DNA of 64,000 nucleotides. It comes from Paludibacteraceae bacterium. GTDB taxonomy: Bacteria > Bacteroidota > Bacteroidia > Bacteroidales > Paludibacteraceae. The stretch spans positions 31,264 to 95,263 of the forward strand of contig JAGCWA010000033.1 of assembly GCA_017962085.1 (NCBI GenBank). Direction: 5' to 3'. This document shows positions 1 through 62,947 of the stretch, one piece after another. The translations under genes and the position numbers were made by a program. The notes below the pieces were generated by a model, which worked only from the letters and a program-made list of their open reading frames with translations, made no database searches and had not been told where the DNA came from. The first letter of the stretch is position 1; each line of letters starts with the position of its first letter.

Positions 1-3000
1 TTCCCACCCGGACATATAGGGTCTGCCCCTGAGATGGACAAGTTAGGTATAGGGTTGACTGTTACGGTATGATTTTTTGTGCCAGGACATCCTTTCGCAT
101 TGTATCCTGTCACTTGGAATGTTTGCTCTGATCCAATTGGTATAACATCTATGGCAGCATTCTTTTTGCTTAGTCCAGTCCAGAAGTATTCGTTGCTCTC
201 TGATCCTGTCGCTTCCAAATGGACTGGGAGTCCATAACATACGGAAGTTGGTCCGTTGATGTTGATGGTTGGTTCTTTGTAGACCTTCACGTCTTTGGTC
301 TTGAACCCTTCGCAACCATCTTTCGTACCGTACACGATGTAATGTATGGTTTTGTCAGTCTTGCTCCCCCATGCTTCAGTCGTGATCGCCGCTTTCTCAT
401 TCATCGGGTTTGTCGTGCCTTTGTCAATCCCTGTTTTGTCAGTGCCTATGTACCAATGGTAAGAGTTGGCTTCGGCACCGGCGGCGGTGAGGACGATGTT
501 GCTGTTGTTGCATATTTCGCCTTCACCTGCGATGTTGATGGACGGAGGTGTCTTTAGGTAGATGGTCACTTGTGCCATCCTCTTACATCCGTTAGCGTTT
601 ACGCCCACTACGTAATAGGTGGTTTGTTGCTTTATGCTGTCAACCTTTATCGAGTCGTTTTTCGTTCCGTTCAGGGAAGTGTATTGGGTGAATGCTTGGG
701 TGGTGTCTTTGTCAGTGAACCATCTGCATTCTGTCAAGGCGACTTTTACACCGTTTTCTATGATATAGGCTTTCAGTGTGTCTGTTCCGTTCGGGCACAC
801 CTTTCCGTTGTTAGCTTCCGCAATGACCCTAGGCAGAGGGTGCACGGTCACATTGACATTCTTTGTGGTGGCGCAATTCCTGCTGTTTGTGATGGTGACA
901 CCATACGTGGTGGAGGTGTTCGGGGTTGCCGACATCTGAGAATCTGTGGTGTGGTTTGCGTCTGTCCATTGGTATGTGTTTGTGACAGAACCAGAATATG
1001 AGCTATAGGAGGTGGTGTCCTGCGCTGTGAGATATATGCTCTCTCCGCTGCAGATTACGGAGTCACCTGTGATTTTGATGGCAGGTATGCTGTCTATCGT
1101 GATTTTTTTTGCCACTTTAGTTGTGCAGGCCACGCTGTTATAACGGTTGAATACAATCACGTGTATCGAGTCGCTCTGCGGGTTGAGTGGGGTAGAGATT
1201 TCTGTGAAGTATGGTATTTTTTCGAAGGCTTGTCCTCCCTTTTCCTCCACACGGGCGGAGTCTGCTCCGTAGATGGATATGCTCACATCTTTGCCCTTGC
1301 AGACAGGCGACAGGTCTGGAATGATTGGAGACGGGTTGTCCCTTACCACTACTTGCTTGTCTATGTATGATTCGCACCCATATCTGTTCGTTCCCGACAG
1401 CCTGTACATGTAATCGTCGCTACCGATGGCGGAAGGTGTGCTATGGATGACAACGAGTGAGTCTGTACCGCTACCTCCGTTGGGCGCGTTTTGGCTTTCG
1501 CTTATTTCGCTTGCGATTGTTTGGCTATTCTCATGGCTGAGTCTATACCATTTGTAAAGCCCGGTATTGTCCACGTCGTTTAGCAGGCTGGTGGCATGGA
1601 GGGTAATAGGGTCGTTCACGCATATTTCGTCTCCTCCGTCGATTATCAGTATCGGTTTCTTCATCACGTTGACTTGGATGGAGTCTTTGACTGCACATCC
1701 GTTGTTGGCTTCCGCCGTGATGTAGTAAAGCGTGGTATCCTGAGGACTCACCGAGTTGTTTGCTGTGTTCTTCAAGTCGCTCCACATCCATTTGCTGATG
1801 CCAAGGCGCGGGTTGGTGGTCTCTTCCGCGTTTAGGGTCGCGTTCTCTGCTTCGCATATGTCCACTTGTTTCGGAGTCGCGCCCATGTGGGTGTTCCTTC
1901 CGGACCCGGAGACTGATATGGTCGGTATGGCCTTTGTGGTGACATTGAAGGCTTTTGTGTAGTAGCAAATGTTTTCCCCCTCTTCTCTACGTATTTTTAC
2001 GTATAGGTGGGTTGTCCCAGGTTCTGGACTAAATGTCAGTTTGGAGTAGGTGTAGCCTTCCCCTTCTTGAATCAAGTTGTTTGGATTGTTTTCTTCGTTT
2101 TCTGTGAGTTCACCTAATGTTTCAGTTTTGTACCACGAGAATTTATTCGTTGGGTCGTTGTAGTTGGTGATCTGCAGAGTTGTGGTTTCCCCTTCGCAAA
2201 CTTCGGTGACTCCGTCAATGCTGACGTCTTCCCTCGGAGAAACAGTGATTGTTTCCGTGTAGGTGTCGTGGCATCCCTTGGCGGTGGTAATATCTAATGT
2301 TACAGTATATCGACCCTTGTTCTCTTGTGTGTATTCCAGAATCCATTTCGGCGTGTCATTTTTATGAGCCGAGTCGGTTACCATGGAGAAATTATGTCCG
2401 TGATTATCGGTACAGGTCCATCTGTATTCTACGATTGTGTCAGGTTCGATAATGCTTCCGTCTTGTTGTTTGATTGGTTTGACGTATGATTCGTTGAGGA
2501 AACTCACTTCGTTATCACATGCGATTTTCTTGGTGAATTTTGCGCCCAATGGGTCTTTCGTCAGTTGCACGATGCCGTAGATTTTGGAGCAGGCTTGGTC
2601 ATCTCCGCTCATCTCACAGATGTAGTCCATGTTCTCTTGTACCTCGGCGCGGTTGACTTGGGCGATGTTGGGTTGATTGGGTACAGTGTAGAGGGATACA
2701 CCTTCACCGGTCTTCCATTCGTAGGATGTGAATCCTGTCGGTGCGGTGATGGTGATCACGTCATTCTCGGGACAGTTGTCCACCAACATCTCCATTTTTT
2801 TTGTGCAAGCGGTGAAATAGCAGTAGGCGCGGTGTCCTCCGGCGACAGGAGTGATCTTGGCGCGGCATTTCCTTCCACATCCGGCGGAACCACTTGTCCA
2901 ACCCCGTTTGCCCGCAATTCCATCTAAGTTATCAACGATTCTTTGTTGTTGATAGCAGTTTACGTATGGTATTCCGTCTGTGTATGAGATTTTTGTGTTG

Positions 3001-4007: not shown

Positions 4008-4264
4008 ATACATCGACTTTGTTCCTTCCATAAGCAGTTATTTCTTAGCGGTCTACCTTGTAGTCTTTCCACTATAGTTCAATATGCTAAATTAAGTTAA
4101 AGTTTTCATTTTGACAACAGTTTCATCCTTTATTTTATTGGCATTTTCTATTTATTGTGCGCATTTTATATTGTTTTTTCACTTTTATTTTACTATGGGC
4201 ACATCCTTGTGTTTGCGTTTCTTTTTCAACTAAGGGAAATCAGTGTTTCAATCTGTGCTTTTAT

Positions 4265-4308
4265 GCAAAAAAACGATGGTTGCCGATTCCTCGACAACCA
4301 TCGTTTTA
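4265..4308 (-). terminator. Rho-independent terminator after the 8426-aa gene
   Basis: Perfect 10-bp stem ACGATGGTTG (4273-4282) / CAACCATCGT (4295-4304). On the minus strand it is followed by a T7 run (plus-strand A run 4267-4273). It lies 50 nt past the TAA at 4359-4361. Confidence 0.75.
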
Positions 4309-4358
4309 TAAGGGTGCGACAGAGTCGCGATTTTAGTGCGTTTTGGGGCGGATATGGC

Positions 4359-22300: not shown

Positions 22301-25300
22301 TCCATACATACGTCAGGTTTTGGGCGGTTCCGCTGGCAGGTTCCGCCTTTAACGTCGCGACATCTCCTTGGCAGAGCGTTACGTTCGGTTCCGTCTCTAT
22401 GACAGGGATGTCGTATACCGTTATTGTGATGTCCGTACTATCCGAACATCCGTTGTTTCCTTCACCCTTCACTCTTAATGTGTAAGTGCCTGATGCGGTT
22501 GGTTTGAACACACTGGTGTTGTTTGACGCCACCAATCCTGCGGCAGTTTTCCAAGTGTAGGTTGTTCCACCCGTTGCGGTGAGGATGGCGCTATCTCCCA
22601 AACAAATTTCCCTGGAGATTGGGTCGCAAGCAATTTGTATGTTCGGTAATGCGTTAGCGGTGATGGTCTGGTTCTTGACTTCGCTTTTGCAGTTCTTGTC
22701 GCTAGCCGCGATTATGGAGTAGAGTTGACTTTGCAGCATCTTCTCCCTCGTGGTGTAGCTGATTTCAGATTGTTGTGCGTTGTAGCGGATGGTGTCGTCT
22801 ACGTTTTCTCTCTTTATGTTGAATGCCGCAACGTCATGGATGTTCGAGAAGGTGATAACTCCGTTCTCTCCCACACATACAGGTTGTGCGTTCATGTCAA
22901 ACGAAGGATTTGGATTTCCTTTGACGGACACTGTGTCTGTTCCCACGCAACCATTGGCCTCTGTTCCGATTAGAACAAATTCCGTAGTCTCTTTCCTGAT
23001 GGCTGGACGGTATTCCGTTCCACCACCCACGCTGGCTCCGTCTTGGAACCAAGAGTAGTTGTTGGTGCTTACACCGCTTGCTGTCAGTGTGATCACCTCG
23101 TCGATACATTTCTCTGTCGCACCGTTGATCTTCACGTTCGGCAAAGCGTTGATGGTCACATTGAATGTGGCAGGAGCAGACTTACATTCTCCCTCCTGTA
23201 CTTGTACGGTCGCTCCGATGGAGGTCTCGTCACTTGAGATTGAGGAGATGTATTTAGCGTAGTATTGGGAACTGTCTTCTTTACTGCTCCAGTTTTTATT
23301 GTTCCATGAATATTTTAGGTTGCTCGGGTCGGAAACATTGCTGTAGTTGGCTTGCAGGATGATGCTGTCTCCCTTACAGATGCTGTTCTTTCCGCTGCGG
23401 CTGGTGATGGTGACGCGTGGTATGTCGCTTACGGTCACATCCTTGGTCTTGGTTGTTGTACAAGATCCGTTTGACGCTGTTACCTTGATGGTGTACACTT
23501 TCGCAATGGTCAGTGTGGTGTCAAATGTGGTGCTTGCTGTGGCGTCTCCATTGTCCCATGAGTAGGTTAGGTTCTCGTCGTTGGTGGTGATGCTGAAGTG
23601 AACCGTTTCGTTTTTACATACGGCCTCCTTGTCCACGTGTATTGTGAATTTTGGCGCATCTGTGGTCGCCACATTGTATTGAGTCCATTCAGATTCACAA
23701 CCGAATCGGTCTGTTCCTTTGATGTGGTACTCTCCGCTACCGTTCATCTTTTGGATGTTGTAGACATTACTCTTGTTGCCCAAATCGTTCCCGTCCGCAT
23801 CTTTCCATGTCCATCCTGCACTGTTCATCACGCTTCCGACACCTACTGCGGTCAGTTTCACATTCTTGTCTTGACATACAGCAGGGCTTGGATCCTGGGA
23901 AATTGATATTGTCGGCAAATCCTTAACCTCTACAGAGGCAGGGGCGCTCGTGGTCGTACAGTTGTTGTTCGCATATCTGGCTATGAGCGTGAATTGCGTT
24001 TCCTCTTCAATCGTGACATTGATTTTGTTGCTGGTATTATTGGTTGGTGCATTGTATGTGATGTTGGCGTTATTGCCTTGGTTGTCTTTCGCTATCCATT
24101 CGTAGCTAAGGGAGGCGTCTCCAATTGCGCTCAATTCCATTGGGCTTCCTTTACATACATATCCCAATCCCTTGTCGATACCGATAGTTGGCTCTGAATA
24201 GATCTCTATGGTGATGTTCTCTTGCGCCGTACAACCTGTAGATGTTTGGGCGGTGATTTCGTATTTCTTCCTTTCAGTTAGATTGCCAGTGTTGAATTGG
24301 TATTGTGTGGAACTGCTTTCTCCAACAACAGCTCCGTCCAATTTCCAGGTGCTCACACTGTTTTTCCCGTCGTACACAGTGATGTTTGTGGAGTTACCCT
24401 TACATAATGTATCTTTTTCCGCATAAATACTCAGGACAGGTTTCGTCTTGACATTGATGCTTTGTTTATTTGTTCCGGAACATCCATTTTCCACACCCGT
24501 CACAATGTAAGTCGTCGCTTCTTCGACGATTGGGTTGATGCTTTGACAAGAAGAGCAAGGGTAATTGGTAGTGTCATTAGGAGATGACTCCTTGACCTGT
24601 TCCCAAGTGAAGGACCCGGCGCCACTTGCCTGTAATGTGACAGGCTCGCCGCTACAAACCGTAGTCTGGCTTGCGTTGATGGAAACTACAGGTATTTCTC
24701 TGATTGTCAGGTTATACTCCGCCTTGCTGGAACAACCTCTACTGTCCTCTCCCGTTACATGGATTGTGGTTCTTCCAATTTTTGCGGTGGAGTCGTATGT
24801 CTCGCCTATAGTTCCATTGTCCCATTTATAGGTTGCGCCTCCCTTGGCGGTTAGGTGTACAGTTTCGTTTTCGCAATATTCGTTCTTTCCTGTAATGTAG
24901 ATGTTCGGGCTGGAAACAACGCTGAAGTTGAATGATTTTTGGGTAATACATCCCTTTTCGCTCTTTCCGTTGACCTTGATCTGGTAGATGGAGTTGCCTG
25001 GCTTTGGACTTTGGTCAGTGAAGGATGTCTGGCCTGCCACATATCCTGTCGCTTGCATGTCGGAGTAAGTGGGTATTGGCTCCCACTGAACATAATCCGG
25101 CATCACTTTGTCAGCGACATTTTTGATGGTCATTGTTATTTGGTCTCCCTGACATACATAGTCATTTTCCATCGTGAAGTCTGGGTATGGGTAGACCGTG
25201 ATGGTGGTGAATGTGTCTCTGCTGCAATATTCCTCGGAGGATCCGACAACCCTTACGTTAGCGTTCTCTGACAATGGTATTTGGATGGATTCGCCCGTCG

Positions 25301-28300
25301 CGTTGGCTATTGTTTGCCCGGTGGCGGTCGATGTGATGTTCCAAGCGTATGTTCCATTGGTGCCAGCTCCCGTAGCGCTGAGGTAAACAATCGAGTTGAC
25401 GCAAGAGTCCTTCCCTGCGACGTCTCTTGTGATGCTGATCGGATCTATGGAGTAGACTTCCATCTTAGCCACAGCGGATGTTCCTTTACAACCATTTCCG
25501 CCCACACCGGATACTCTGTATTGGGTCTTAATGGTTGGTTTTACTGTGACGGATCTTCCCTTGCCGGATAGGGTGTCCCATGTCGTTCCGTTGTTGGTGG
25601 AGTATTCCCAAATATACTCGTTCCCGGTTTCTCCGCCCGTTACGGAGAGTGTTGCGCTGTCACCTTTACAAATGCCACCCTCTGCGCCTGAGATGGCGAG
25701 TGCAGGCGCTTCCAGAACGTTGATGGTGACAAAATCCTCTTTTTCACATCCGTCGAGTGAGCCAGTGTAGATGTATTCCTTGGTTCCGGCTCTTCCCACA
25801 TCTGCTATTGTCCATGAGTATGCGGCGGTAGGAGATTGGTTCTTCGCAATGGTGTCTCCTTGATATATATATTTGTCCGCACCCATTAGGGCGATTTCCA
25901 CGGAACCATTTTCGCATGCCTCCACACCTGATGTTGCGGATAGGTTAGGGTATGGTTTCGACTCCAGTGTGATGCTTGCTGTGGATATACAGTTGTGACC
26001 GGTCTTTCCTGTCACACTAATAGGTTCCTCTCGTTGGTAGATGGCCACGGTGATTTTTTCTCCGATGGCTCCGTTGCTCCAAGAGTATTCAAGCGATTGT
26101 CCGTTCCCCGTTCCTTTGATTTGCGCTGTCAACTCTTTTGTTCCGCCTTCGCAGACTTTCGTATTGTCGAATAGGATTTCGATCTCCGGCGCTTCTTCGA
26201 TGCTGACGGATATAGGTTCTGTGCTCTTACATTTCGCTCCGCTGATGTTGCTTCCCTCCACGTAATATAGAGTATCGCTTCTCGGTGTGTCGGTGAATGT
26301 GGTTCCTGTTTTTTTGTTGTTTTCGTCACCTTTCAGCCACCAGGTGAATACATCTGCGCCTATTGCGCTCCAGGAGATTGGTTCCCCCTCGCATATGACT
26401 CTCTCTCCGATGATGCTGATCTTTGGCGCCTGGTTCACATCTATACTGAACTCATTGGTGGTCTTACATGTGATGCCTCCATTTTTCTTGAATCCCTCCA
26501 CCATGTAGAATCTTTTCGCCTCGTTGGCCACGAGTGGAATCCTGATTGTGTCAGGTGGGGTGAGCAGACTTCCTGCTTCAATGCTGTTGTCGACCACGCA
26601 GGAGTCCACACCGTTCACTTTCAACTCGAACTCAACGCCAGCGCATTCCCTGCTTGGGGAGTTGTCGAACGCGATGGTTGGCTTCTTGTACATGTAAATG
26701 TTTATGAAGTCCGTGTTGGTACATCCGTATTGGTCGCTACCGCTCACTGTATATTGGTATTCATACCTATTTGTAGAACTGTTGAAGTAGTTTTGGTCTT
26801 CAGCCGGAGTGGCAGTGATGGCGTCCAGGGTAGGCTGACCTTGGTTTGGTGTTGTCCACACGAAGGTTCTGATCGCGTTCCCGACAGCATCTTTTCCTGA
26901 CACTCTCATGGTGGTGGATTCTCCGACACAGATTTCCGTGTAGCCATTGCTTATGGTGTCATTGTTGGCTGTGATGGTCAACTTAGGCAATGGGATGGCG
27001 TTGGTTTGGAGAGAGTCGACTTGCGCACATCCGTTCTCTGCCAGGAATACCAAATAGTATTGTGTGGTGTCCAGCACGTTGATGTTGCTGGTGTCCGTGG
27101 TGCTGGCGGTCATTAGACGCAATCCGTTAAAATCGACGTTCTCCAATCCTGTCCAGTTTGCCCGGTCGAACCAACCGTACTGGCAATTATCCATACTAGT
27201 GGCTCCTGTCAGTCGGATGGTCTCTCCTGTACAGAGGTCCACCTGTTTGATTTCCCCCTCAGGTGTGTACATGTTGGAGATGGATATTTTGGAGGTTGGT
27301 TTCTCGATAACGGAGACATCATGTGTGCCCTCGAATACGCAATGCATAGGATTGCCGTGGTCAGTGATTCTGTCCTGATGGATTTGTAAACGGTAACGGA
27401 TCGTTCCATTTACCGGCTTCACGTAACAGGACCTACCATCGGTTCCGTTCGATCTCTTCAGGGTGTCTCCTGCCTCGTTGAGCCAAACGTAGTAGTAATT
27501 TCCCCCTCCGTTTTGTAAGTCGTTCTCTGTGTAAGAGTTGTCGTCCAGACTCAGCAGGGTGGAGTCTCCGTAGCAAACTGTTTCGTCACCGTTGATGACC
27601 ACCTCAGGTCTTTTTTCCACATTGATTTGTTTGATGACAGGAATCCTACAGTCATTTTTAGTTACGACCGCCAATTGGGTTGCGAAGTTGCATCCTCCGT
27701 CGACTTGACAGTTGAATAGTTTAGTCGGTTCGAACTCTCCATTCTCCTCTTCTGCCTCTCCGCTTTGGTCGAAGAATGTCCAAACTTGGTAAACGATGCT
27801 GTCGTTCGCTTTCTCGATATTGTTCACTGTCACGTGTTCAACCCTAGATAGGTTCGTGAACTTCACCTCGTTGTAGCATCCCTTGTCCCAAGAGTAGTCC
27901 GCCACGATAGGGTTCTTCAATAGTCGGAATGTGTCTATCACTTTGGTGCAGCTCTCGTCTGCGCTGTTGTACATGGTGCAGGTGTAGTCCACGCCCTCGA
28001 AGATGCTTGTGTCGGGAATTGCGCAAATGTATGGCGAGCTCGATTTCGTTTTGAATATTTTGCCGTCGCTCAATCTTTTCCACTCGTATGTGTCGAAGGC
28101 GTCAGGTGCTGTGATGACGGCATCCTCGCCTCCGCCACAGTTCTTGATCTTCAGTTCCATCTTTTGTGTGGAGGCGTTGACGTAGGCGTAGGTGCGGTGG
28201 TAACCACCGGTGAATGATGTGACGAACTCTCTTTCGTTATTAGGGCTACATACTTCGCATTTTGCCATGTATTCTCCTGGTATTATATCCCCGTTGCCGT

Positions 28301-29639
28301 TTCTCTTTGGCCTGAGTTCAGTCGTATTTGTGTAGAATTTCGGTTTGTCGGCGGCGTGGCTTCCTCCGCATCGTGGCAACAACTCTAGGCAATCCCGGTT
28401 TTCCACTTCGATGGTGATGGTCTGTCCTATGAATTTCCGAAGGTCATAGCTTAATGTCACCCAACCGTCATAGGAGAATTGATAGAGTAAATTTTTCACG
28501 TGGGATGCGCTACATGGCGTGTTGGGATCTTCATTTCCGAAGGTAACTTCTGTGATTTCTTTTTGTTTGTACTTCTTGCAAGCTTGGAGGGTACACTGGT
28601 ATTGTTTGCAAACTCGTACGTATTGGTCACAGAAGGTTTCGGTTATATCATTATAGCTCCATCCTGTTTGTCCGTATATTCGACCGTCGCAATTGTCGCA
28701 TTTCCAAGCTGTCCACTGATTTTTCTTGCATTTAAATTCTATACCTGTGCTACATGTTCTATTCTCTTTGCTCTCATGCACCGTCCGTGTTGAGTAGTGT
28801 GTACAACTGTCTGCTTCAAGTATGCAATTGTTGTTCCATCCTTTGCATTCCCATTCTTCGCATTCGTCTGTGTCCTCGTATCTCGTTGTTACGGTTCTTA
28901 CTCTTTGGCGTCGCGCAGCGGGTTTTAGTCTGGCGTCACCAGGTCGGTATTCCACCTTTGCCCCACATTCTTGGGAAGGAATCAATGTGCCGTCGGCTTT
29001 GCGGACTTTAATGCTGAAACGAGGTCTTTCATCGTCTGGGTAAATGTGTGGATGTGTGTGGCTTATGGGGTCTTCGTCCTGCATGATGACAGCATAGCGA
29101 AGGGATAGGAGTGTGGAATTCTCCTTCACTTCAAATTCGTAGGTGGCGCGTTCCGCCATGGCCCTGTTTTTACGTTTGAGGATTGTTGAATCGTTGTAGT
29201 GAACTTCCGCTTCATCGTAAGATCCGATTCGCATGGACTGTCCGAAACCTTCTGGGACCAATCTGATGTTGTCGCACGCCAGATTGAAGTCGAAACCTGT
29301 GCTGGCCACTACTTCGAAATATCCACGTTCCACATTGATGTTGTCTGTTTTGAGCGACCACGTGTCGTGTACATTGGGATCCATTCCGTTGCTGCTGACA
29401 TCTTCGCTGATTTTGTCGCTGATGATTAGTTTTGCGTTGGACGCGTCCTGACTTTCGTATTTTACAGGTCCATAGTACCCGTAATATCGAGTCCAGTTCT
29501 CGAAGTTTCCTTTCTCGAAACTAAGGTTCGGTGTGTCTATATTTCTTGTCGCTGCGTAGGTAGACGCTCCGATAAGGAATAGCGCTATGGTTGAGATTAA
29601 GTTGATTTTCAATAGTCTGTGTATATGTTTTGCTCCCAT
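4359..29639 (-). CDS. Giant (8426 aa) T9SS type-B-sorted repetitive cell-surface adhesin
   Basis: Single uninterrupted 25,281-nt ORF. Signal peptide MGAKHIHRLLKINLISTIALFLIGASTYA. N-terminal head of about 475 aa. Long array of roughly 75-85-aa units, each with the pattern [LP]P.[IV].[IV].G....C.G....L.A.G...Y.W ... G..GC. C-terminal 96 aa (FWAPNAFTPNEDGMNDFFLFKG...WRIFDRSGRIIFES...WDGTDKNGE...GVYGYIVEY) match the gliding-motility-associated / T9SS type-B C-terminal domain signature. Confidence 0.93.
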   Translation of the reverse strand: MGAKHIHRLLKINLISTIALFLIGASTYAATRNIDTPNLSFEKGNFENWTRYYGYYGPVKYESQDASNAKLIISDKISEDVSSNGMDPNVHDTWSLKTDNINVERGYFEVVASTGFDFNLACDNIRLVPEGFGQSMRIGSYDEAEVHYNDSTILKRKNRAMAERATYEFEVKENSTLLSLRYAVIMQDEDPISHTHPHIYPDDERPRFSIKVRKADGTLIPSQECGAKVEYRPGDARLKPAARRQRVRTVTTRYEDTDECEEWECKGWNNNCILEADSCTHYSTRTVHESKENRTCSTGIEFKCKKNQWTAWKCDNCDGRIYGQTGWSYNDITETFCDQYVRVCKQYQCTLQACKKYKQKEITEVTFGNEDPNTPCSASHVKNLLYQFSYDGWVTLSYDLRKFIGQTITIEVENRDCLELLPRCGGSHAADKPKFYTNTTELRPKRNGNGDIIPGEYMAKCEVCSPNNEREFVTSFTGGYHRTYAYVNASTQKMELKIKNCGGGEDAVITAPDAFDTYEWKRLSDGKIFKTKSSSPYICAIPDTSIFEGVDYTCTMYNSADESCTKVIDTFRLLKNPIVADYSWDKGCYNEVKFTNLSRVEHVTVNNIEKANDSIVYQVWTFFDQSGEAEEENGEFEPTKLFNCQVDGGCNFATQLAVVTKNDCRIPVIKQINVEKRPEVVINGDETVCYGDSTLLSLDDNSYTENDLQNGGGNYYYVWLNEAGDTLKRSNGTDGRSCYVKPVNGTIRYRLQIHQDRITDHGNPMHCVFEGTHDVSVIEKPTSKISISNMYTPEGEIKQVDLCTGETIRLTGATSMDNCQYGWFDRANWTGLENVDFNGLRLMTASTTDTSNINVLDTTQYYLVFLAENGCAQVDSLQTNAIPLPKLTITANNDTISNGYTEICVGESTTMRVSGKDAVGNAIRTFVWTTPNQGQPTLDAITATPAEDQNYFNSSTNRYEYQYTVSGSDQYGCTNTDFINIYMYKKPTIAFDNSPSRECAGVEFELKVNGVDSCVVDNSIEAGSLLTPPDTIRIPLVANEAKRFYMVEGFKKNGGITCKTTNEFSIDVNQAPKISIIGERVICEGEPISWSAIGADVFTWWLKGDENNKKTGTTFTDTPRSDTLYYVEGSNISGAKCKSTEPISVSIEEAPEIEILFDNTKVCEGGTKELTAQIKGTGNGQSLEYSWSNGAIGEKITVAIYQREEPISVTGKTGHNCISTASITLESKPYPNLSATSGVEACENGSVEIALMGADKYIYQGDTIAKNQSPTAAYSWTIADVGRAGTKEYIYTGSLDGCEKEDFVTINVLEAPALAISGAEGGICKGDSATLSVTGGETGNEYIWEYSTNNGTTWDTLSGKGRSVTVKPTIKTQYRVSGVGGNGCKGTSAVAKMEVYSIDPISITRDVAGKDSCVNSIVYLSATGAGTNGTYAWNITSTATGQTIANATGESIQIPLSENANVRVVGSSEEYCSRDTFTTITVYPYPDFTMENDYVCQGDQITMTIKNVADKVMPDYVQWEPIPTYSDMQATGYVAGQTSFTDQSPKPGNSIYQIKVNGKSEKGCITQKSFNFSVVSSPNIYITGKNEYCENETVHLTAKGGATYKWDNGTIGETYDSTAKIGRTTIHVTGEDSRGCSSKAEYNLTIREIPVVSINASQTTVCSGEPVTLQASGAGSFTWEQVKESSPNDTTNYPCSSCQSINPIVEEATTYIVTGVENGCSGTNKQSINVKTKPVLSIYAEKDTLCKGNSTNITVYDGKNSVSTWKLDGAVVGESSSTQYQFNTGNLTERKKYEITAQTSTGCTAQENITIEIYSEPTIGIDKGLGYVCKGSPMELSAIGDASLSYEWIAKDNQGNNANITYNAPTNNTSNKINVTIEEETQFTLIARYANNNCTTTSAPASVEVKDLPTISISQDPSPAVCQDKNVKLTAVGVGSVMNSAGWTWKDADGNDLGNKSNVYNIQKMNGSGEYHIKGTDRFGCESEWTQYNVATTDAPKFTIHVDKEAVCKNETVHFSITTNDENLTYSWDNGDATASTTFDTTLTIAKVYTIKVTASNGSCTTTKTKDVTVSDIPRVTITSRSGKNSICKGDSIILQANYSNVSDPSNLKYSWNNKNWSSKEDSSQYYAKYISSISSDETSIGATVQVQEGECKSAPATFNVTINALPNVKINGATEKCIDEVITLTASGVSTNNYSWFQDGASVGGGTEYRPAIRKETTEFVLIGTEANGCVGTDTVSVKGNPNPSFDMNAQPVCVGENGVITFSNIHDVAAFNIKRENVDDTIRYNAQQSEISYTTREKMLQSQLYSIIAASDKNCKSEVKNQTITANALPNIQIACDPISREICLGDSAILTATGGTTYTWKTAAGLVASNNTSVFKPTASGTYTLRVKGEGNNGCSDSTDITITVYDIPVIETEPNVTLCQGDVATLKAEPASGTAQNLTYVWNNENGILNGATIYPVINKNETFTVYGSDDHCSSRPVTVNVSIKQRGDINIATSPICEGTQAKVTFSASDLGSVSLQGGTTYDQTVTENAVRKLEITFDGLTDTKSYTAIVVDTNQCSIDTSFTIEVVKKPVISFDPSTDNNTSKICLGDDVTITAQSDQTSATLAWESLDNLASPVFTIDNTNTGKFKLIPENPRGIDDPYKFTVTATNAHGTLTCTSSETYNIVVYDEAINSIIGDQAACEGSNLTLSSEKTTFSSYTWTEATNPSNILSSANSLTEKIETDKTYILTVYDVNGCKNESRIDIKAVPIPDFDIQTTPICQGNVATSTVRKNKLGRLGPNGNSTFTWDNVKFTWDNVAGDLSFTEQLSESKTYHVVGTYEYAMGNNKILTCSSEPVTKTAVVNKKPEFTILSDNTRNNTVCKKDTIKFSVPGNNLKCVWNRGDANGPINDYTFRGESNVTKHGIVTSSNEKEYCRVVPSKLKPRVTDIYYWVTVTDNTTQCKDSDFVVAHLDTVPNPPQAIFAACQGSDVTLSTYVEGAVDYEWYHNDQVTLLGTGPSYTLSSNILWNENVNDKNFYVRAIDYLGCKSDMIVNQIRRQNKVNINVDKPKVCEGDKPTIRLSGAHEYEWTSERNHPGPEFTERNPIFNDKQYTVTAWDTTEIEMSNGVHVTLKSCEAETTFTLRVNKKPIFYINEPNTVSTSVCFKENATLTGTIDSNVDANNAEYTWKVSDYNLPTGDINKTSIKIPATNPNVAQYMVKLSIKNTETGCVDSTDYYVNVNPLPEVTIIADDNPVCEGEQITLRTNNVYSSYDWRESDRNGTTTGTSLSSTDHYETPTTENFSKYIRVDVTDVYNCSNWDTILIYTKARPEFTISANPICYNGYPTLVVDGDMDEINWPDGSKSTQASSSTWKTWTSQTRLTNDKTFTINTSKGGCVSDIKSVPVTVHPKQELTFKVNGVETQDRPVMVCTGTENVRIETHSTTAGAVLSNIQWLNGSSTNPITPTIARDTTFTVSADVKVTNDLSCEASGSQAIKVYPTNKITITGKNQVCKGDELDFTAIGAESYQWHIIGDNNTCSIVCNNSDSSEITAKRIMGNFKIYATGTDANECACAQSDTISVTILPSPTIIISGNPGTICSGSTLAMTATLAEGEGAGKDVRWTRGTGINGNLVNTKLTTNNGSKREEVYSVKASLTVDNNTCNSEEDITVTILPLPELILSTEGAFCEGGQTEITATEIYGANVQYKWNDGTYGSSNTFTATSGTTYSVIAKMTDGLQCEMEEPKTTNITVVPRPTLTGINMEGSPCNGERVSLKPAGSGNSSYNYEWYYVTKDNNAVLIERMEEIKPTITTQDTTFRIVVSTQQSFANVTLVCSSTMDTTISMRPDPVFNFQAKTPCYGDSMDIRVIGDATSYDWTWDGDKTIQDTNHVKIDNAQGSHFFQVKAEKDGCTISKDTTVNVYALPIINGFTGENVICVDNTANILAVLCDDPSSIKKYEWEERAINGYTIDANDSSKINIKPTQAQEDVPYNVTVTDKNGCKASESYMIDIKPMPRTKTEVTPNCPGEPTTIKAEEEGNIENVTYTWYEYDPTQSGNNNKGAFVGSGDKLEKEISDSAQFVVTASSEFGCEIDTTVMAKAYPLPTITFEGNTTICEGESTDITIHAEWPTGHTGTQAISYYWQEDNASTSQAQVTLSPKDTTTYHIKVETANNCQMDTFIQINVKKKPIVTINGMRDGSDNICEGSSFKLTAEVTNMTGEFDYTWNNGNTPTNAELDIAKVIGSTDYTVVVKEKNVLTHQCSDNTKFTVNGLERPTVKIAKVDTVCENTEVDIFVENAKNEYQYVWNNGKTGTSITERIAPKVPADTFIVTCINPENGCEAYDSTTVGTKPYPTIALYNSLGQVITNKDTITCKDVTLKVRAKVTNAANGADTTYVWSKENDLSFHGGTNSLLETTVSDNGVYIVTANLNNCESQDTIRTNYYSIPTVTIDGDKNTCPDGDVELHASVTGGDPNSTYTLSWRIENGNQTNGFSITENTRKDTIQASHLTGSSYTFIATATDDKNCEAKSDQFVVELWSNPTVLLFPEKSKVCEGDSTTISARLQTGNGTFTWKIDNTDEEVGDRIEVVILNSITLFEVTGMDENGCIGTADTTITRLDKPTLTIDGIKGICEGGADSVALKLSGAIQYTIDNTKVYNSSAISNIVEAILKPDATRDYDIKYSDGQCEGDSTISIMVNPLPDLRINGESNGSANICEGDSIILGATKGLKNYGWTISTFSGTEVYNTNKDTVVIKTNANRHEEQTISVKLGAANGNDCSDSAYFTITINPQPVFTLDAMEAICEHGEIDLRVTSTADAQINELDWGTLSSSHRERNVTVTSTKPAGQEEVYSVTAKSINQCTYTDSVKIAVKALPTFTIAGEDVCENDYAVIKLESSAADYSYYVGGDEITFTNGEWTDRSKKLSTGQAMSVTAKKTYTLTNNTLVCEKEEGTYVNVKPLPDVEISAPTFLCVNTPRAELTSSSADKYKWFNGNNDSIWNEQTLVITEMPDKDTTLRYTVEVTVGRCKNSNEAIIQVFNTPKFEVPTELVFVCEGSDKTLTFTDKTNGTWEWNTGATTESITLPDVQGTDTITVTARTNGCEATKKFIVKAKENPAYDREGSLTVCKGSYSNVILHKDKNGLVISDYIWRGGGNIPPEGSDITDLTIQEKIDDRSDFEISMMRHHVDKVVYNGTNLIDSVDCIAHEIITIDIWDLPAISINGGKADTTVCAGEPVVLTATSQNILTDSWAWKGKDLTASSTPNTSSNSIVNITTDKDLTGNGQNKYIVKATDGNGCTDSTDFTVYVNALPRIELSAPSQVCAQTDTIVTVKSGHTDLLYSWDDGASFTTSNVWNISIDENDKTVKVIVKDNNGCTNTSDSTIKSLPNPEVTFVDPVNNVCLGDSVKLKVKDNNSTETKFYWMGDKNNTGDSLIVKSLKELTTFTVVGTRSICTHTQTHIVDVWSLPNVKIDLSAKSVCKGDSVTLAGNGALKYAWRDSRGTISRDENDYGTESEMTYKNLTTQTTKYLWGMDGNKCVNQDSVFIGINELPKFSISGDTIACEGEEVTLTATKDASTVGGLGYEWTNKSGTELGRNDELKIRITQDTTLYVIGTNANGCSEKDSIRIMMKMIPDIYAVKDTHNVCKDDTATLVVNSHMNNVTFSWVDARTGTKITGNDLSFNNTTLKQTISTYKEYKATVTKQYPIFVNKYKECSSDTIFKITPWEKPVIQLDGQREVCEGDSVLLKAQGGVDGEYIWSVKYQDQNDNEVIDTVKVNNSLVRESQLKIAPEADLTTYIVEGKDIRTCKNSTNILVRRNGLPKFNIKGPKEACEGDKIEVLVEATTAYSYKWDESGYRTNNSHNYTITKDTTIRIYAINPDTHCEKLDSITIDSKKHPELMLDVDKYICFGSAANFSTQLNDNDSTKFYWYEGTDVSATADKVGKEWTTKPLTTESWFHVLAQKKYVTAVCESDTTFRVQVLQLPNIKIKEGNSYSACKGQPLTLNATGGDKYAWDTRDTSARGSQDTTFIPTRNGEKHILLGGMSYPNYDGKTCYNVDSTIIALHELPVFSIEGPTDTCDNTRIALTGNSAEGLSYKWTDTLGNHISSLKSHTFLITKDTTVKLTASNSLGCSSSLTHTVKMHKLPIIKLDTITENVCKGAKGLVRVSNTETNVEEVQYQWTSWGEQGAILNRDSITPKVLKQTQYTVTASNVYTNTSNNAKGYCPSVNKYTINTWDDPTIIVENVSVCPGNTATLEASSPTVSIDNAFHWEGTNVHSATYTTNAITSDSTFYVTVVDGNNCQGRTSVNVSLHPLPAFTLSSNSPVCRGSDVTVQANNMGLEYDWHDMKGFRQDMTYSETLNDDKMLYVTARTAFGCTKDDSINVKVKANPILRLSMKNSEGKDTNYVCYGENMTLTAQGANGGYFWSVDKRDRNEYDGQNEIVLTQLTAPVNVQLRGISNGCESTIDTSINIWSLPNITIDVENTDVCIGGYDSLFAKGGISGKYTWRGPEISEAGIQWAGTYASSLFGDQVKVHLNASKNASFMTKYYVTGVDENGCKGQGDIDIKVNELPSVQIEGDLEVCQGAEATLYTSGTAESFIWTVNKENYYTSNINPQILKDSTIVTVIGTDNNGCESVDRDTIRTKPIPHILVNTNTGVDTVCKNDMVRIDLRAVDAKGKDLSENASWEWQNANTNSYWEEVISNKRSYNVRVEVRECQNDTNFNINVWPLPIFEIKGEDAVCIGDSTILTAEDDKNGNGPMTYQWTQTAQGGLGATTEIKNHTSAELMVKPTDITRYNAMGTDKHQCHSTATHLVRVDALPTDLIIVATPSDSICEGNNVTLKATGSGVDYTWSIGENILTSGEEMTYKIEETTTFTVRGRNANGCDFKVDKTIYKKDRPVIKVEEKPEYVCYNTEAKIVVSGAEIYKWDNNETSNTTKEVLLMDRTFTVSGSKNGCEAEPIDINVPVKSLPTILITSDKLDNEICANDSISLIASGGESGKYSWENGQYKSDVIKVGPLATTTYTVWGEDKFGCKNYNEYKVIVHDLPLLHIEAYQDLICEGDIDTLWVVNDNPKAANGSQVLFKSYAWEDGETVEKINSSIKKDKTFKVTVQDIYGCVNNAEKEVKTKPYPKLNVTAPDYTCYNESAQISISGAKNYTWNDGSHVSQFSNKLLRDTIYSVTGETDGCKTDTTFPVAVMPLPNVWISSNVDELCLNQTITMRANGAHTYVWDVRDIETNSSTVETVTVKPNKANKSFKYHVTGTDLNGCINKDSFEVKVNPAPIFQIHGKTEICQGDMDTLWVTGDAIRYTWTNTGEQSDTIYPIVEEHTTYKVMAESENGCTAEDNIKVKVKMYPDVTISAPKAVCHGEKAVLTANGANEYVWQNDPTQNNKKYVDSPEKGTTYTVRGTTKGCTSVASVYVDVNPLPYVWITGNESICSGDDIELSANGAASYVWSTKQVGEHINLTPTETSKPLVIWVTGTDANNCVNKDTFEITVHPLPTIKILGDNATCNGDATHLEATGAKDYVWSTSEQGAHIYPIITSNKTFTVEGTDEHGCKSTGSKTVTRKLYPVLSYTAPSAVCDGSEVRISVTGASHYKWSGSESLKAQGGTMTDTIHERTIYKVEGEENGCTTVRDIIIDKYELPTIWINGPATVCQGTQLKLSATGGNTYTWAWGGNTYRNTTLSDQPERTTTYRVTGTDSHKCSNTAEHVVVVKPTPKFVVKGVTEVCEGTATTLTAESTDNSQLSYSWSNGAGTPSITPVINTTTKFIVVGKDANNCESTVTHTVVSQKIPEVTWTGVTTLCQGDRLQLNAKGAKTYKWTSSDKPGVTLSTTNLMTDYPTTSAVYVLEGSSNGCAAEPISIPVNALPNPSLTFQGNTVICENSQLTLTVYGADSYLWNNGSSNKTMITIPPAGDSVFSVVGTDKNKCKSELKIPVRVNKNPEFTIDGETEVCRGEYTTLTATGDAMTYYWGYQTPIYDKNLSSNGTPIAVQIDIPTYVFVKGVDDKGCETEKSINIKMKTPPTVVYSGNTEVCLGEAIKLFAEGDAKEYRWSTDGGLTSKAGNPYEFTPMGVTRVLLSGIADNGCVTSEEILIETNVAPNVDIYGDSSVCEGGNATLIADGADKFVWREEGSDIVEEGRYLVREGLKAGANKFHITGTSVNNCKNTKEFTLWVYKNPTVKIHDTLVGCPNTDTRAEFSIRESYIVKCNWSSNPINGDLFSNYEKKVSGTITTPTEVYVAAYDANGCASHDTIKVDALEFNPIRFDVTPTTIDEKSNVIEMTGIFPETNNWTWITDDGRPDTRGRNAKHTYINPNASDSFTVTAIAVDDNGCRYEGDTIVYVWKDFWAPNAFTPNEDGMNDFFLFKGTEFMTEFHWRIFDRSGRIIFESDNRNGKWDGTDKNGEKCEWGVYGYIVEYKSVYKGIDKTGERRGTVTLIR
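4362..4649 (-). other. T9SS type-B (gliding-motility / CHU_C-like) C-terminal sorting domain of the 8426-aa protein
   Basis: Last 96 aa: WKDFWAPNAFTPNEDGMNDFFLFKGTEFMTEFHWRIFDRSGRIIFESDNRNGKWDGTDKNGEKCEWGVYGYIVEYKSVYKGIDKTGERRGTVTLIR. The N-A-F-T-P-N-x-D-G-x-N-D, I-F-D-R-x-G and W-D-G motifs are characteristic of type-B CTDs. Confidence 0.85.
4650..28124 (-). repeat. Array of Cys-bracketed Ig-like domains (estimated ~100 units, not counted individually)
   Basis: About 7,800 aa of tandem 75-85-aa units, each opening with P-x-P/x-I-x-G...C-x-G and closing with G-C near the unit end. Units are diverged at the DNA level, so this is not a recent amplification. Confidence 0.8.
28125..29549 (-). 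other. N-terminal head region shared by both giant paralogs (unknown fold)
   Basis: aa 31-505 of the 8426-aa protein, starting TPNLSFEKGNFENW. Collinear conserved blocks occur in paralog 2 (TPNLSFEDGN; VKENSTLLS; DERP; TIEV..DCL.ELP; ITAP..F..YEWK). Confidence 0.6.
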
Positions 29640-31116: not shown

Positions 31117-31190
31117 TCTTCCTTAGCTCAGTCGGTTAGAGCACCTGACTGTTAATCAGGGGGTCCTTGGTTCAAGTCCAAGAGGGAGAG
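31117..31190 (+). tRNA. tRNA-Asn (anticodon GTT)
   Basis: 74 nt. The cloverleaf folds by hand: acceptor TCTTCCT/AGGGAGA (one G-U), D arm GCTCAGTCGGTTAGAGC, anticodon stem CCTGA/TCAGG with loop CTGTTAA, T arm CTTGGTTCAAGTCCAAG. CCA is not encoded. Confidence 0.93.
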
Positions 31191-31193
31191 CAG

Positions 31194-31401: not shown

Positions 31402-31435
31402 CCTTTGTTAGCATTCAATCATAGACCCTAATAAA

Positions 31436-46031: not shown

Positions 46032-46032
46032 G

Positions 46033-52425: not shown

Positions 52426-52438
52426 ATTTTATAATAAT

Positions 52439-52470: not shown

Positions 52471-52483
52471 GTCTTTGCGCATT

Positions 52484-58356: not shown

Positions 58357-58373
58357 TTTAGTCATGTATGGAC

Positions 58374-58407: not shown

Positions 58408-58412
58408 GTTTT

Positions 58413-62356: not shown

Positions 62357-62947
62357 ATGATGATTCAAATCGATGATACGATCATTTCCACGGACCTCTT
62401 CGACACGAGGTTCTGTTGCGATTTGTCCGTTTGCAAGGGTGAGTGTTGCGTGGAGGGTGACTCCGGCGCACCGTTGGAGAAGGATGAGTTGCCTGAGCTG
62501 GAGAAGGTGTTGCCTGTCGTGTGGGACGAATTGCCGGAGAAATCCCGTGAGGTGATAAAGCAGCAAGGCTTTTCCACGGTGGATGGGGATGGTGATTTGG
62601 TCACCTCCATCGTGGACGGATGTGAGTGCGTCTTCGCCTATTTCGATGAGGATGGCATGTGCAAGTGCGCCATCGAGAAGGCCTACAAGGAGGGTCGTGT
62701 CGGGTTCTACAAACCGATATCCTGCCATCTGTACCCTGTCCGTCTGGAGACGCTCCGGAACGGGACGGTGGCCTTGAACGTCCATCGTTGGAGGGTTTGC
62801 CGTTGCGCCTTCGCCAAGGGGCAGGAGGAGAACGTGCCGTTGTATGTTTTCCTGAAAGAACCGCTGATCCGTCGTTTCGGCAAAGAGTGGTACGAGAAGG
62901 TGGAGATCGCCGCCGAGGAACTGAAAAAGATGGAGGATCGAGGATGA
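62357..62947 (+). CDS. DUF3109-family Cys-rich protein
   Basis: 196 aa. MMIQIDDTIISTDLFDTRFCCDLSVCKGECCVEGDSGAPLEKDE matches the conserved N-terminus of Bacteroidetes DUF3109 proteins. Confidence 0.75.
   Translation: MMIQIDDTIISTDLFDTRFCCDLSVCKGECCVEGDSGAPLEKDELPELEKVLPVVWDELPEKSREVIKQQGFSTVDGDGDLVTSIVDGCECVFAYFDEDGMCKCAIEKAYKEGRVGFYKPISCHLYPVRLETLRNGTVALNVHRWRVCRCAFAKGQEENVPLYVFLKEPLIRRFGKEWYEKVEIAAEELKKMEDRG

What the first reader, a model, noticed from the sequence alone, without database searches (positions are those of the whole stretch)
1..29639. Two tandem paralogous giant adhesin genes fill nearly half the window; at least one is T9SS type-B sorted
An 8426-aa ORF (25.3 kb) is followed, after its own terminator (4265-4308), by a second gene. 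That gene has its own signal peptide and a homologous head region, and its repeat array continues past the window edge. The supplied ORF track misses the second gene entirely. The first gene ends in a type-B CTD. Established work on SprB/SprF in Flavobacterium shows that type-B cargos normally need a cognate PorP/SprF-like outer-membrane partner encoded next to them. No such gene lies in this window, so it may sit beyond the left edge, downstream of paralog 2. Proteins of this size are rare. The conserved head domain suggests a shared, uncharacterised ligand-binding or tip function.
Basis: partly seen in the sequence, partly recalled or inferred. Interest (0 to 1): 0.7.

Follow-up and report, generated by a model that had tools for sequence, protein, structure and literature searches.

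The report
Tandem giant T9SS surface adhesin genes
An uncultured rumen bacterium carries two adjacent, anciently duplicated genes for roughly 8,000-residue cell-surface fibre proteins exported by the type IX secretion system, which is a new, well-supported example of a known kind of giant adhesin rather than a new kind of system.

Summary
Gene 1 (4359-29639, minus strand) is an intact 8426-codon ORF. It encodes a signal peptide, a roughly 470-aa head, about 91 diverged Ig-like repeats and a type-B T9SS sorting domain above the curated cut-offs. A strong, conserved terminator follows it. Gene 2 (start about 4031) then runs off the left edge and has a homologous head.

Mis-assembly is excluded. 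The longest exact DNA repeat is 16 nt, and independent assemblies give the same gene.

The window holds no PorP/SprF gene. In this same strain a PorP/SprF gene lies about 5.5 kb past the right edge. It sits directly after a third, 1667-aa family member whose sorting domain is 52% identical to gene 1's. In a sister lineage, a gene-2-type giant is followed by MutS2, not PorP.

New points:
- The tandem pair is conserved and collinear in three related genomes.
- The head core has a carbohydrate-binding-module-like fold, with a cysteine-stapled beta-hairpin insert in gene 1.
- The distal roughly 1200 aa of gene 1 is a divergent allelic cassette (dS 0.8-2.0 against 0.05 in the flanks) under purifying selection.

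Verdict: a new member of a known kind, of moderate interest.

The parts
4359..29639 (-). Gene 1: complete CDS for an 8426-aa giant T9SS type-B surface protein (stop codon 4359-4361)
   Evidence: ORF list and translation. Independent assemblies call the same gene at 8426 or 8430 aa. omega is 0.08-0.24 between strains.
29550..29639 (-). Gene 1 signal peptide (aa 1-30, ...LFLIGASTYA|AT). It is 100% identical between strains.
   Evidence: Sequence read directly. Strain comparison. The cleavage site is inferred and was not run through a predictor.
28143..29546 (-). Gene 1 head domain (aa 32-499). It has no Pfam or NCBIfam model. The core is a beta-sandwich like carbohydrate-binding modules.
   Evidence: No family hit in the head. 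AF2 model: pLDDT 73.7, pTM 0.65. The minimal homologous head models at pLDDT 83.9 and matches CBM61/27/16/28 at E 1e-5 to 1e-3. Only 40 clusters at E<=1e-30 among 1.84 billion representatives.
28515..28910 (-). Cysteine-rich insert in the gene 1 head (aa about 244-375), predicted to form one very long beta-hairpin
   Evidence: AF2 strands 213-261 and 296-344 of the model, pLDDT about 72-87. Cysteines on the two arms sit at mirrored positions (sums 554-559) and are conserved in gene-1-type heads. The insert is absent from gene-2-type and short heads.
27600..28142 (-). Two Ig/PKD-like domains between the head and the repeat array (aa 500-680)
   Evidence: Aligned with the gene 2 PKD_4 region.
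4644..27596 (-). Stalk: about 91 contiguous Ig-like repeats (PF19081 Ig_7 type, about 80 aa each), aa 682-8332
   Evidence: Pfam Ig_7 at 189 and 259 bits. An iterated HMM finds 91 back-to-back domains. Median pairwise identity is 21%, maximum 42%. There is no nucleotide-level repetition.
4362..4634 (-). Type-B T9SS C-terminal sorting domain of gene 1 (aa 8336-8426)
   Evidence: TIGR04131 45.1 bits (cut-off 35) and PF13585 63.3 bits (cut-off 27).
25920..29519 (-). Variable distal cassette of gene 1 (aa about 41-1240): an old divergent allele between strains of one species
   Evidence: 53-94% nt identity in 120-nt windows, against 98.8-100% in flanking genes. dS is 0.8-2.0 over aa 31-1000, against 0.05 in the flanks. 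omega is 0.08-0.23. The 5' boundary falls just after the signal peptide. Fragment P0026 is close to identical to this window's gene 1 up to about aa 263 and then diverges.
4265..4308 (-). Intrinsic terminator of gene 1
   Evidence: 17-bp stem plus U-run, -27.6 kcal/mol, z -5.8. Conserved with compensatory changes in L005 and L017.
4032..4225 (-). Conserved leader or promoter region of gene 2. It is about 95% identical across three species, more conserved than the coding sequence.
   Evidence: Alignment A4. No Rfam family. Function is inferred only.
3..4031 (-). Gene 2, 5' part (first 1343 codons; the gene continues past the left edge): signal peptide, head, PKD-like domain and the first roughly 9 Ig-like repeats
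   Evidence: Open frame. Head HMM E 1.6e-88. Ig_7 at 73.7 bits. Orthologues are 62% and 69% identical, open for more than 4656 aa and more than 3229 aa.
2775..3938 (-). Gene 2 head domain (aa 24-411 counted from MKCIK), same family as the gene 1 head but without the long hairpin insert
62944..64000 (+). M16 peptidase gene that runs off the right edge. It is the synteny anchor for the next two genes, the 1667-aa short paralog and its PorP/SprF, at window-equivalent 64,501-69,504 and 69,539-70,492 (+), outside the window.
   Evidence: L024 is 100% identical to window 52357-64000 (11644 of 11644 nt) and continues into those genes. The same gene order is seen in L006-8 and L022/23.

Best explanation
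The region encodes two tandem, anciently duplicated giant cell-surface fibre proteins of an uncultured rumen Paludibacteraceae bacterium (Bacteroidales).

Proposed pathway for each protein:
1. It is exported by Sec through its N-terminal signal peptide.
2. It crosses the outer membrane through the type IX secretion system, using a C-terminal type-B sorting domain. This is shown by sequence for gene 1. For gene 2 it is inferred from gene-2-type relatives.
3. It stays anchored by that C-terminus to a PorP/SprF-family outer-membrane protein.
4. About 91 Ig-like repeats then form a stalk a few hundred nanometres long. The length is inferred.
5. The stalk presents the N-terminal head away from the cell.

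The head core is a beta-sandwich of the carbohydrate-binding-module type, so the likeliest job is binding a glycan on plant particles, other microbes or host material. That function is inferred from fold alone.

In gene 1 the head carries a cysteine-stapled long beta-hairpin. The distal roughly 1200 residues exist as old, divergent alleles exchanged by recombination. This fits an exposed tip whose ligand or enemies vary.

Neither giant has a PorP/SprF gene beside the parts seen. The most likely shuttle (about 45%) is the PorP/SprF encoded about 40 kb from the start of gene 1. It lies directly after the family's 1667-aa short paralog and would serve the giants in trans as 'orphan' cargos.
For: - Architecture and sorting domain.
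- Real, selected gene: independent assemblies call it at 8426 or 8430 aa. There are no DNA repeats longer than 16 nt. omega is 0.08-0.24.
- Conserved tandem pair: seen in L005 and L017, with the gene 1 tail 78% and 72% identical and gene 2 62% and 69% identical.
- Collinear giants: the 7956-aa gene-2-type relative P0155 aligns end to end with gene 1 (257-7956 against 388-8426) and ends in a type-B domain.
- Head fold.
- PorP pairing: the short paralog plus PorP occurs in the same strain. The short paralog is always directly followed by PorP elsewhere. Sorting domains are 52% identical between gene 1 and the short paralog. The L019 giant has no PorP within 10 kb downstream.
- Literature: orphan type-B cargos share a distant shuttle, and closely related domains cross-talk (PMC12618676). 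Type-B cargos are anchored through PorP-like proteins (PMC9143113).
Against: - There is no expression, localisation or binding data.
- The C-terminus of gene 2 and what follows it in this genome were not seen. A second PorP/SprF could lie there.
- The exact-peptide scan that found the tails of gene 1 orthologues and short paralogs found no third tail on the L017 contig. The gene 2 tail therefore differs at least at those motifs.
- The 52% domain identity only borders the level at which cross-talk was shown in F. johnsoniae.
- The head's structural matches are weak: about 10% identity and target TM of 0.45-0.59. TNF-like jelly rolls also match.
- The long hairpin rests on an AF2 model built from only about five sequences that contain the insert.
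Confidence: 0.75

Rival explanations
1. One reading: the cognate PorP/SprF for these giants is encoded just past the left edge, directly downstream of gene 2. One shuttle gene at the end of the tandem pair would serve both.
For: A porP/sprF-like gene directly downstream of a type-B cargo gene is the commonest layout (PMC12618676). It holds for every short paralog examined. The end of gene 2 in this genome was not reached.
Against: Gene 1 is followed by a terminator and gene 2, not PorP. The gene-2-type giant of a sister lineage (L019, 63.5% identical to P0155) is followed by MutS2, flotillin, a phosphatase-family gene and PNPase, with no PorP in 10 kb. A PorP/SprF already exists nearby, paired with a paralog whose sorting domain is 52% identical.
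Confidence: 0.3
2. The giants are SprB-like mobile adhesins. They would be carried along the cell surface by the gliding machinery, and their main role would be motility rather than static attachment.
For: Like SprB they are giant, repetitive and type-B sorted. In F. johnsoniae, orphan type-B cargos are directed to the gliding track (PMC12618676). No porE-like gene is seen next to the PorP at 69.5 kb. Gorasia et al. link that absence to mobile cargos.
Against: No SprB-repeat (PF13573) or sprC/sprD-like genes were hit. There is no sprF directly downstream. Cultured Paludibacter is described as non-motile (my own recollection, not checked here). The presence of gliding genes in this genome was not tested.
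Confidence: 0.15
3. The head binds a protein or cell-surface receptor (cell-cell aggregation, predator or phage decoy) rather than a carbohydrate. The CBM-like fold would be only a generic jelly roll.
For: TNF-family and gingipain K2 adhesin jelly rolls also match at E 1e-4 to 1e-3. Strong allelic divergence of the tip is typical of partners that co-evolve.
Against: The best target-normalised matches are CBM61, CBM16, CBM28 and a porphyran CBM from a T9SS protein. The rumen habitat is rich in polysaccharide surfaces.
Confidence: 0.3
4. The giant ORF is an assembly artefact (collapsed or chimeric repeats) or a decaying pseudogene.
For: Repeat-rich giant genes in short-read MAGs are a known risk.
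Against: The longest exact repeat is 16 nt, with a single 47-nt self-HSP in 29.6 kb. Repeats are 21% identical at the median. Several independent assemblies give intact 8426- or 8430-aa ORFs. omega is below 0.25 throughout. Orthologues in other species are collinear.
Confidence: 0.02

Closest known systems
SprB / SprF of Flavobacterium johnsoniae (giant type-B T9SS gliding adhesin and its PorP-like shuttle)
   Same: [quoted passage not shown] Both have a Sec signal peptide and a TIGR04131-type C-terminal domain that depends on a PorP/SprF-family protein.
   Different: - No sprF directly downstream, and no sprC/sprD neighbours.
- The repeats are PF19081 Ig_7, not SprB repeats.
- The head is unrelated and has no Pfam model.
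- There are two tandem giants plus a short paralog.
- The host is an anaerobic rumen Bacteroidales bacterium with no evidence of gliding.
[quoted passage not shown]
   Same: They are type-B cargos with no adjacent porP/sprF gene. The documented solution is a shuttle encoded elsewhere and shared by several related sorting domains.
   Different: Here the candidate shuttle is not itself an orphan. It is paired with a paralogous short cargo. Sharing is inferred from 52% domain identity and was not tested.
PG1035-PorP of Porphyromonas gingivalis (PMC9143113)
   Same: A type-B cargo held on the surface by a PorP-family protein that is not encoded beside it.
   Different: P. gingivalis has a single PorP that is part of the core machinery. 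This lineage has several PorP/SprF paralogs.
Beta-sandwich carbohydrate-binding modules (CBM61 2xom, CBM27 1of3, CBM16 2zex, CBM28 1uww, porphyran CBM 8xmz)
   Same: The predicted fold of the conserved head core matches them: Foldseek E 2e-5 to 6e-4, probability about 1.0, target-normalised TM 0.37-0.59.
   Different: About 10% sequence identity. No CBM family HMM hit. The head is much larger (265-470 aa) with lineage-specific inserts. The binding site and ligand are unknown.
Roughly 1500-aa 'gliding motility-associated C-terminal domain-containing' proteins of Paludibacteraceae (P0003-P0011; the 1667-aa protein of L024)
   Same: Same head family, same Ig_7/PKD repeats and same type-B tail. 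The heads place them as sister to the giants.
   Different: They have only about a dozen repeats and are always directly followed by PorP/SprF. The copy in this strain has an acidic Gly/Ala/Glu-rich N-terminal extension.

Membership tests
T9SS type-B cargo (TIGR04131 / PF13585 CHU_C) | C-terminal domain scores above the curated cut-off of TIGR04131 or PF13585 | tested here: met
   Gene 1: 45.1 bits against 35, and 63.3 bits against 27. The gene 2 C-terminus is outside the window. Gene-2-type P0155 and L019 carry the domain.
T9SS type-B cargo (TIGR04131 / PF13585 CHU_C) | N-terminal Sec signal peptide | tested here: inconclusive
   Both genes start with a basic n-region, a hydrophobic core and an A-x-A-like site. 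No signal-peptide predictor was available.
T9SS type-B cargo (TIGR04131 / PF13585 CHU_C) | The host has a T9SS | tested here: inconclusive
   Indirect only. Type-A CTD proteins lie at 37032-42323 and 55952-56437, and a PorP/SprF gene lies on the same contig. Core genes (sprA/sov, porK-N) were not looked for.
T9SS type-B cargo (TIGR04131 / PF13585 CHU_C) | A porP/sprF-like gene lies directly downstream. This is common but not obligatory: 9 of 12 cargos in F. johnsoniae. | tested here: not met
   Gene 1 is followed by a terminator and gene 2. No PorP lies in the window. The nearest is about 40 kb from the start of gene 1. For gene 2 this could not be tested.
T9SS type-B cargo (TIGR04131 / PF13585 CHU_C) | Secretion depends on T9SS and on a PorP/SprF shuttle | not testable with these tools
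   Needs genetics or reporter fusions.
SprB-type gliding adhesin | SprB repeats (PF13573) and sprC-sprD-sprB-sprF gene order | tested here: not met
   No PF13573 hit at E<=0.01. The neighbours are pfkB, tRNA-Asn, dnaE, trx and Sir2.
SprB-type gliding adhesin | Movement along the cell surface, required for gliding | not testable with these tools
   No culture or imaging.
PF19081 Ig_7 (Ig-like domain, CHU_C-associated) repeat proteins | Significant matches to PF19081 | tested here: met
   189.4 and 259.2 bits in gene 1 and 73.7 bits in gene 2 (cut-off 27.3). The family HMM finds 91 and 10 repeats.
Carbohydrate-binding module (head domain) | Sequence membership of a CAZy or Pfam CBM family | tested here: not met
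   No Pfam or NCBIfam hit in the head. The profile search against PDB sequences gave only E = 0.74.
Carbohydrate-binding module (head domain) | Beta-sandwich CBM fold | tested here: inconclusive
   The minimal head model (pLDDT 83.9) matches CBM61, CBM27, CBM16 and CBM28 at E 1e-5 to 1e-3 with modest TM. TNF-like jelly rolls match too.
Carbohydrate-binding module (head domain) | Binds a carbohydrate | not testable with these tools
   Needs a binding assay.

The most novel reading that the evidence does not exclude
The locus may be part of a three-member cargo family: two giants of about 8,000 aa or more and one protein of about 1,700 aa. All three would be served by a single PorP/SprF shuttle. 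The tip of gene 1 would combine a CBM-like lectin domain with a long disulfide-laddered beta-hairpin 'spike', roughly 15 nm long if extended (an estimate from about 49 residues per arm). That tip would be kept in the population as deeply divergent, recombining alleles. This would amount to population-level tip switching on a conserved stalk in a gut commensal, analogous to receptor-binding-protein cassette exchange in phage tail fibres.
Probability: 0.2. Interest if true: 0.6.

Novelty: new member of a known kind. Interest (0 to 1): 0.4.

Why it matters
Giant T9SS adhesins have been studied almost only in gliding Flavobacterium. This locus shows the same export logic used for very long surface fibres in an uncultured rumen Bacteroidales lineage.

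It offers three concrete handles:
- a natural test of whether one PorP/SprF shuttle can serve several paralogous type-B cargos;
- an uncharacterised, rare, CBM-like tip domain that may mediate attachment to feed particles or to other microbes;
- a clear case of allelic tip replacement on a conserved stalk.

None of these overturns current understanding. They extend it.

Tried and rejected
1. Protein search with gene 2 did not return the protein itself. The giants seem to be missing from that index, so the full length of gene 2 could not be read.
2. The genome-contig scan found only a related species (L005), not this genome. The locus stopped 4656 aa into the gene 2 orthologue.
3. I searched for the window species' PorP using a PorP from a relative and two context look-ups. 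These returned only more short-paralog/PorP pairs. The 'longest contig' fingerprint idea failed because that column describes the cluster representative only.
4. Foldseek on the full gene 1 head gave nothing at E<=1e-3, because the long insert dominates the model. The minimal head worked.
5. A profile of the head against PDB sequences gave nothing.
6. Rfam on the gene 1-gene 2 spacer gave nothing.
7. The sigma-70 promoter/terminator scan missed the real hairpin and gave no more promoter-like sites than shuffled sequence.
8. A literature search for giant adhesins in rumen Paludibacteraceae found nothing specific.
9. I first took the minus-strand ORFs 62207-62785 and 62962-63447 for genes. They have no family hits and overlap the real plus-strand genes.
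10. Mis-assembly and pseudogene readings were rejected.
Full report
**What is there**

On the minus strand, 4359-29639 is one ATG-started ORF of 8426 codons with no stop. An open frame of that length cannot arise by chance in 48% G+C DNA.

The product has these parts:
- a signal-peptide-like N-terminus;
- a head of about 470 aa with no Pfam or NCBIfam match;
- two PKD/Ig-like domains;
- about 91 back-to-back Ig-like repeats of the PF19081 'Ig_7, CHU_C-associated' type, from aa 682 to 8332;
- a C-terminal domain that passes the curated cut-offs of TIGR04131 (45.1 bits against 35) and PF13585 (63.3 bits against 27).

A 17-bp hairpin with a U-run lies 51 nt after the stop codon (-27.6 kcal/mol, z -5.8).

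A second minus-strand frame is open from 4037 to base 3 (1345 codons). It starts at ATG 4031 with a signal-peptide-like sequence. Its head and first repeats align with those of gene 1 at 27-29% identity (E 2e-43 and 8e-21). The ORF tool does not list ORFs that run off an end, which explains why this gene was 'missed'.

**Is it real**

The repeats are old.
- Median pairwise amino-acid identity is 21% and the maximum is 42%.
- At the DNA level, the longest exact repeat in 1-29639 is 16 nt.
- There is a single 47-nt self-match.

An assembler therefore has nothing to collapse.

The neighbouring pfkB protein is found, by exact sequence, on 15 public contigs. The four shown come from four samples. 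On those four the giant gene is called intact at 8426 or 8430 aa. One of them (L004) is 100% identical to the window over the first 9.6 kb of gene 1.

Between the two strains, omega is 0.08-0.24 all along the part that can be compared. The reading frame is therefore under purifying selection.

**Whose genome**

The contigs are rumen metagenome assemblies and MAGs. The closest species representative in the genome collection is titled a Paludibacteraceae MAG from sheep rumen, and the named relatives are also Paludibacteraceae.

The remaining genes in the window are ordinary chromosomal ones: pfkB-family kinase, tRNA-Asn, dnaE, thioredoxin, Sir2, a 1763-aa LRR/BNR protein with a type-A T9SS tail, GH3-family ligase, esterases, PRPP synthetase, an SNF2 helicase and others.

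**The family**

The tandem pair is conserved.
- In L005 (a related species), a gene whose last 2293 aa are 78% identical to gene 1 ends in the same type-B domain.
- It is followed by the same terminator, with compensatory stem changes, and then by a gene 62% identical to gene 2. That gene is still open after 4656 aa.
- L017 and L018 (JAEEGG010000281.1 and JAEEGK010000056.1, near-identical in the parts examined) show the same layout in a third genome, at 72% and 69% identity.

The gene 2 orthologue aligns with gene 1 in register over more than 4300 residues at 25% identity.

A complete 7956-aa relative (P0155) aligns end to end with gene 1 (257-7956 against 388-8426, 28%) and ends in a type-B domain.

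A neighbour-joining tree of the heads gives:
- a gene-1-type clade (bootstrap 100);
- a gene-2-type clade that includes P0155 (bootstrap 82);
- the giants as a group, apart from a set of proteins of about 1500 aa with the same head and tail (bootstrap 100).

The array was therefore already giant before the duplication, and its length and repeat order have been kept since.

**The PorP/SprF question**

The window has no PorP/SprF.
- Pfam found none in the larger ORFs outside the two giant genes.
- A PorP HMM against all six-frame ORFs of at least 50 aa gave only noise, with a best E of 0.48.

The short paralogs are always followed within 10-35 nt by a PF11751 gene.

The right end of the window (a 196-aa PF11307 protein, then an M16 peptidase running off the edge) has the same gene order as the region upstream of those short paralogs. 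Looking up the 196-aa protein gave a 173-kb contig, L024. It is 100% identical to window 52357-64000 (11644 of 11644 nt), so it is the same strain. On it the peptidase is followed by two genes:
- a 1667-aa protein with the family head (E 3e-58) and the type-B tail (E 1e-68);
- 35 nt later, a PorP/SprF gene.

In window-equivalent coordinates these lie at 64,501-69,504 and 69,539-70,492 on the plus strand. That is about 5.5 kb past the right edge and about 40 kb from the gene 1 start. The last 100 aa of gene 1 and of this short paralog are 52% identical.

For the left side I could not reach the end of gene 2 in this genome. The best proxy is L019, the tail of a giant 63.5% identical to the gene-2-type P0155. 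It is followed by MutS2, a flotillin-like gene, a phosphatase-family gene and PNPase, with no PorP in 10 kb.

Published work in F. johnsoniae shows the following (PMC12618676; PMC9143113):
- 9 of 12 type-B cargos have an adjacent sprF-like gene;
- the three orphans share one distant shuttle;
- shuttles can handle non-cognate cargos with closely related sorting domains;
- PorP-like proteins anchor type-B cargos.

My reading is that the giants are orphan cargos, most likely served by the nearby PorP/SprF. This step is inference. I put it at about 45%, against about 30% for a second shuttle gene after gene 2.

**The head**

An exhaustive profile search of 1.84 billion representative proteins found the following for the head:
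- 1398 hits at E<=1e-3;
- 225 hits at E<=1e-10;
- 40 hits at E<=1e-30.

It is a small family inside a wider, loosely related set.

AF2 on the minimal head of a short paralog gave pLDDT 83.9 and pTM 0.85. Foldseek against the PDB gave 37 matches at E<=1e-3. They are led by beta-sandwich carbohydrate-binding modules (CBM61, CBM27, CBM16, CBM28, and a porphyran-binding module from a T9SS protein) and by a chain of a Klebsiella phage tailspike (K2-2 TSP). TNF-like jelly rolls rank lower.

The gene 1 head modelled at pLDDT 73.7. It shows the same core plus a 130-residue cysteine-rich insert predicted as one very long beta-hairpin, with arms at aa about 244-292 and 327-375. Cysteines on the two arms sit at mirrored positions and are conserved among gene-1-type heads. 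That fits a ladder of cross-strand disulfides. The gene 2 head lacks this insert.

A glycan-binding tip is therefore the best guess, but it rests on fold alone.

**Allelic tip**

I compared the window with a second strain (L001-L003).
- The flanking DNA is 98.8-100% identical, with dS of about 0.05 for dnaE and the LRR gene.
- The gene 1 stalk from aa 1001 to 3190 is about 95% identical (dS 0.12-0.14).
- Over aa 1-1000, 170- to 320-aa blocks are only 73-87% identical. Identity falls to 53-65% in some 120-nt windows, and dS is 0.8-2.0 over aa 31-1000. In 120-nt windows the lower identity continues to about aa 1240.
- omega there stays at 0.08-0.23.
- The first 120 nt of gene 1 and the intergenic DNA just upstream are 100% identical.

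This is the signature of an old, divergent allele brought in by recombination, not of relaxed or recent positive selection. A database fragment (P0026) is close to identical to this window's gene 1 up to about aa 263 and then diverges inside the insert, which suggests further mosaics.

**Comparison and verdict**

The system works like the known giant type-B T9SS adhesins, of which SprB is the model. It is not a SprB orthologue:
- it has no SprB repeats;
- it has no sprCDBF neighbourhood;
- it has no adjacent sprF.

It meets the sequence definition of a type-B cargo and of an Ig_7 repeat protein. Its head belongs to no described family.

I file it as a new member of a known kind. Moderately interesting extras are the ancient collinear tandem giants, the orphan status beside a paralog-linked shuttle, the CBM-like head with a stapled hairpin, and the allelic tip cassette. 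Interest is 0.4.

Noticed in passing
window 4032-4225 (-), aligned with L005 and L017: The last roughly 190 nt before the gene 2 start codon are about 95% identical across three species whose gene 2 proteins are only 62-69% identical. The region is more conserved than the coding sequence. It may be a promoter plus a structured leader. There is no Rfam match.
   Followed up: partly
window 37032-42323 (-): A 1763-aa LRR (BspA-type)/BNR protein with a type-A T9SS tail. Its DNA has many internal repeats at 63-75% identity, unlike the giants, whose repeats share no DNA similarity.
   Followed up: no
window 31117-31191 (+) and 59325-59399 (-): Two tRNA-Asn(GTT) genes. The strain-2 copy of the first is 100% identical over 76 nt to the second. 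A tRNA-Asp lies at 46032-46106 (-).
   Followed up: partly
window 62207-62785 (-) and 62962-63447 (-); also 31415-32758, 32891-34138 and 34138-34620 (-): Long minus-strand ORFs with no family hits that overlap real plus-strand genes (PF11307 protein, M16 peptidase, dnaE). They are spurious antisense ORFs.
   Followed up: yes
L024 12145-17148 (window-equivalent 64,501-69,504): The short paralog of this strain starts with an acidic, low-complexity extension of about 150 aa made of GAEQGAGGKEDGPGAGG-like repeats before the head. The short paralogs of other species that were read lack it.
   Followed up: no
P0001 (1306 aa, 4.8-kb contig): A gene-2-type head and a few Ig repeats, joined to a different C-terminal region that ends like a type-A T9SS tail (...GLYIVNGRKVVIK). 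It is either a real domain-swapped short form or a chimeric contig.
   Followed up: no
L009 8544-10907: In another lineage, a giant gene tail is followed by a gene-2-type gene that stops after 787 aa (P0002). This may be a truncated or frameshifted copy of paralog 2.
   Followed up: no
L002 5685-9575: In one assembly, dnaE is called as two pieces (749 and 535 aa). This is probably a frameshift or sequencing error in that contig.
   Followed up: no
L006/L007 14234 onward: In the P0010 species, the short paralog/PorP pair is followed by a further 2584-aa HYR/CHU_C type-B protein. Type-B cargos cluster in these genomes.
   Followed up: no
window 55952-56437 (+) and 56434-58356 (+): A small 161-aa protein consisting mostly of a type-A T9SS tail. 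It overlaps by 4 nt a 640-aa Cthe_2159-type carbohydrate-binding protein.
   Followed up: no
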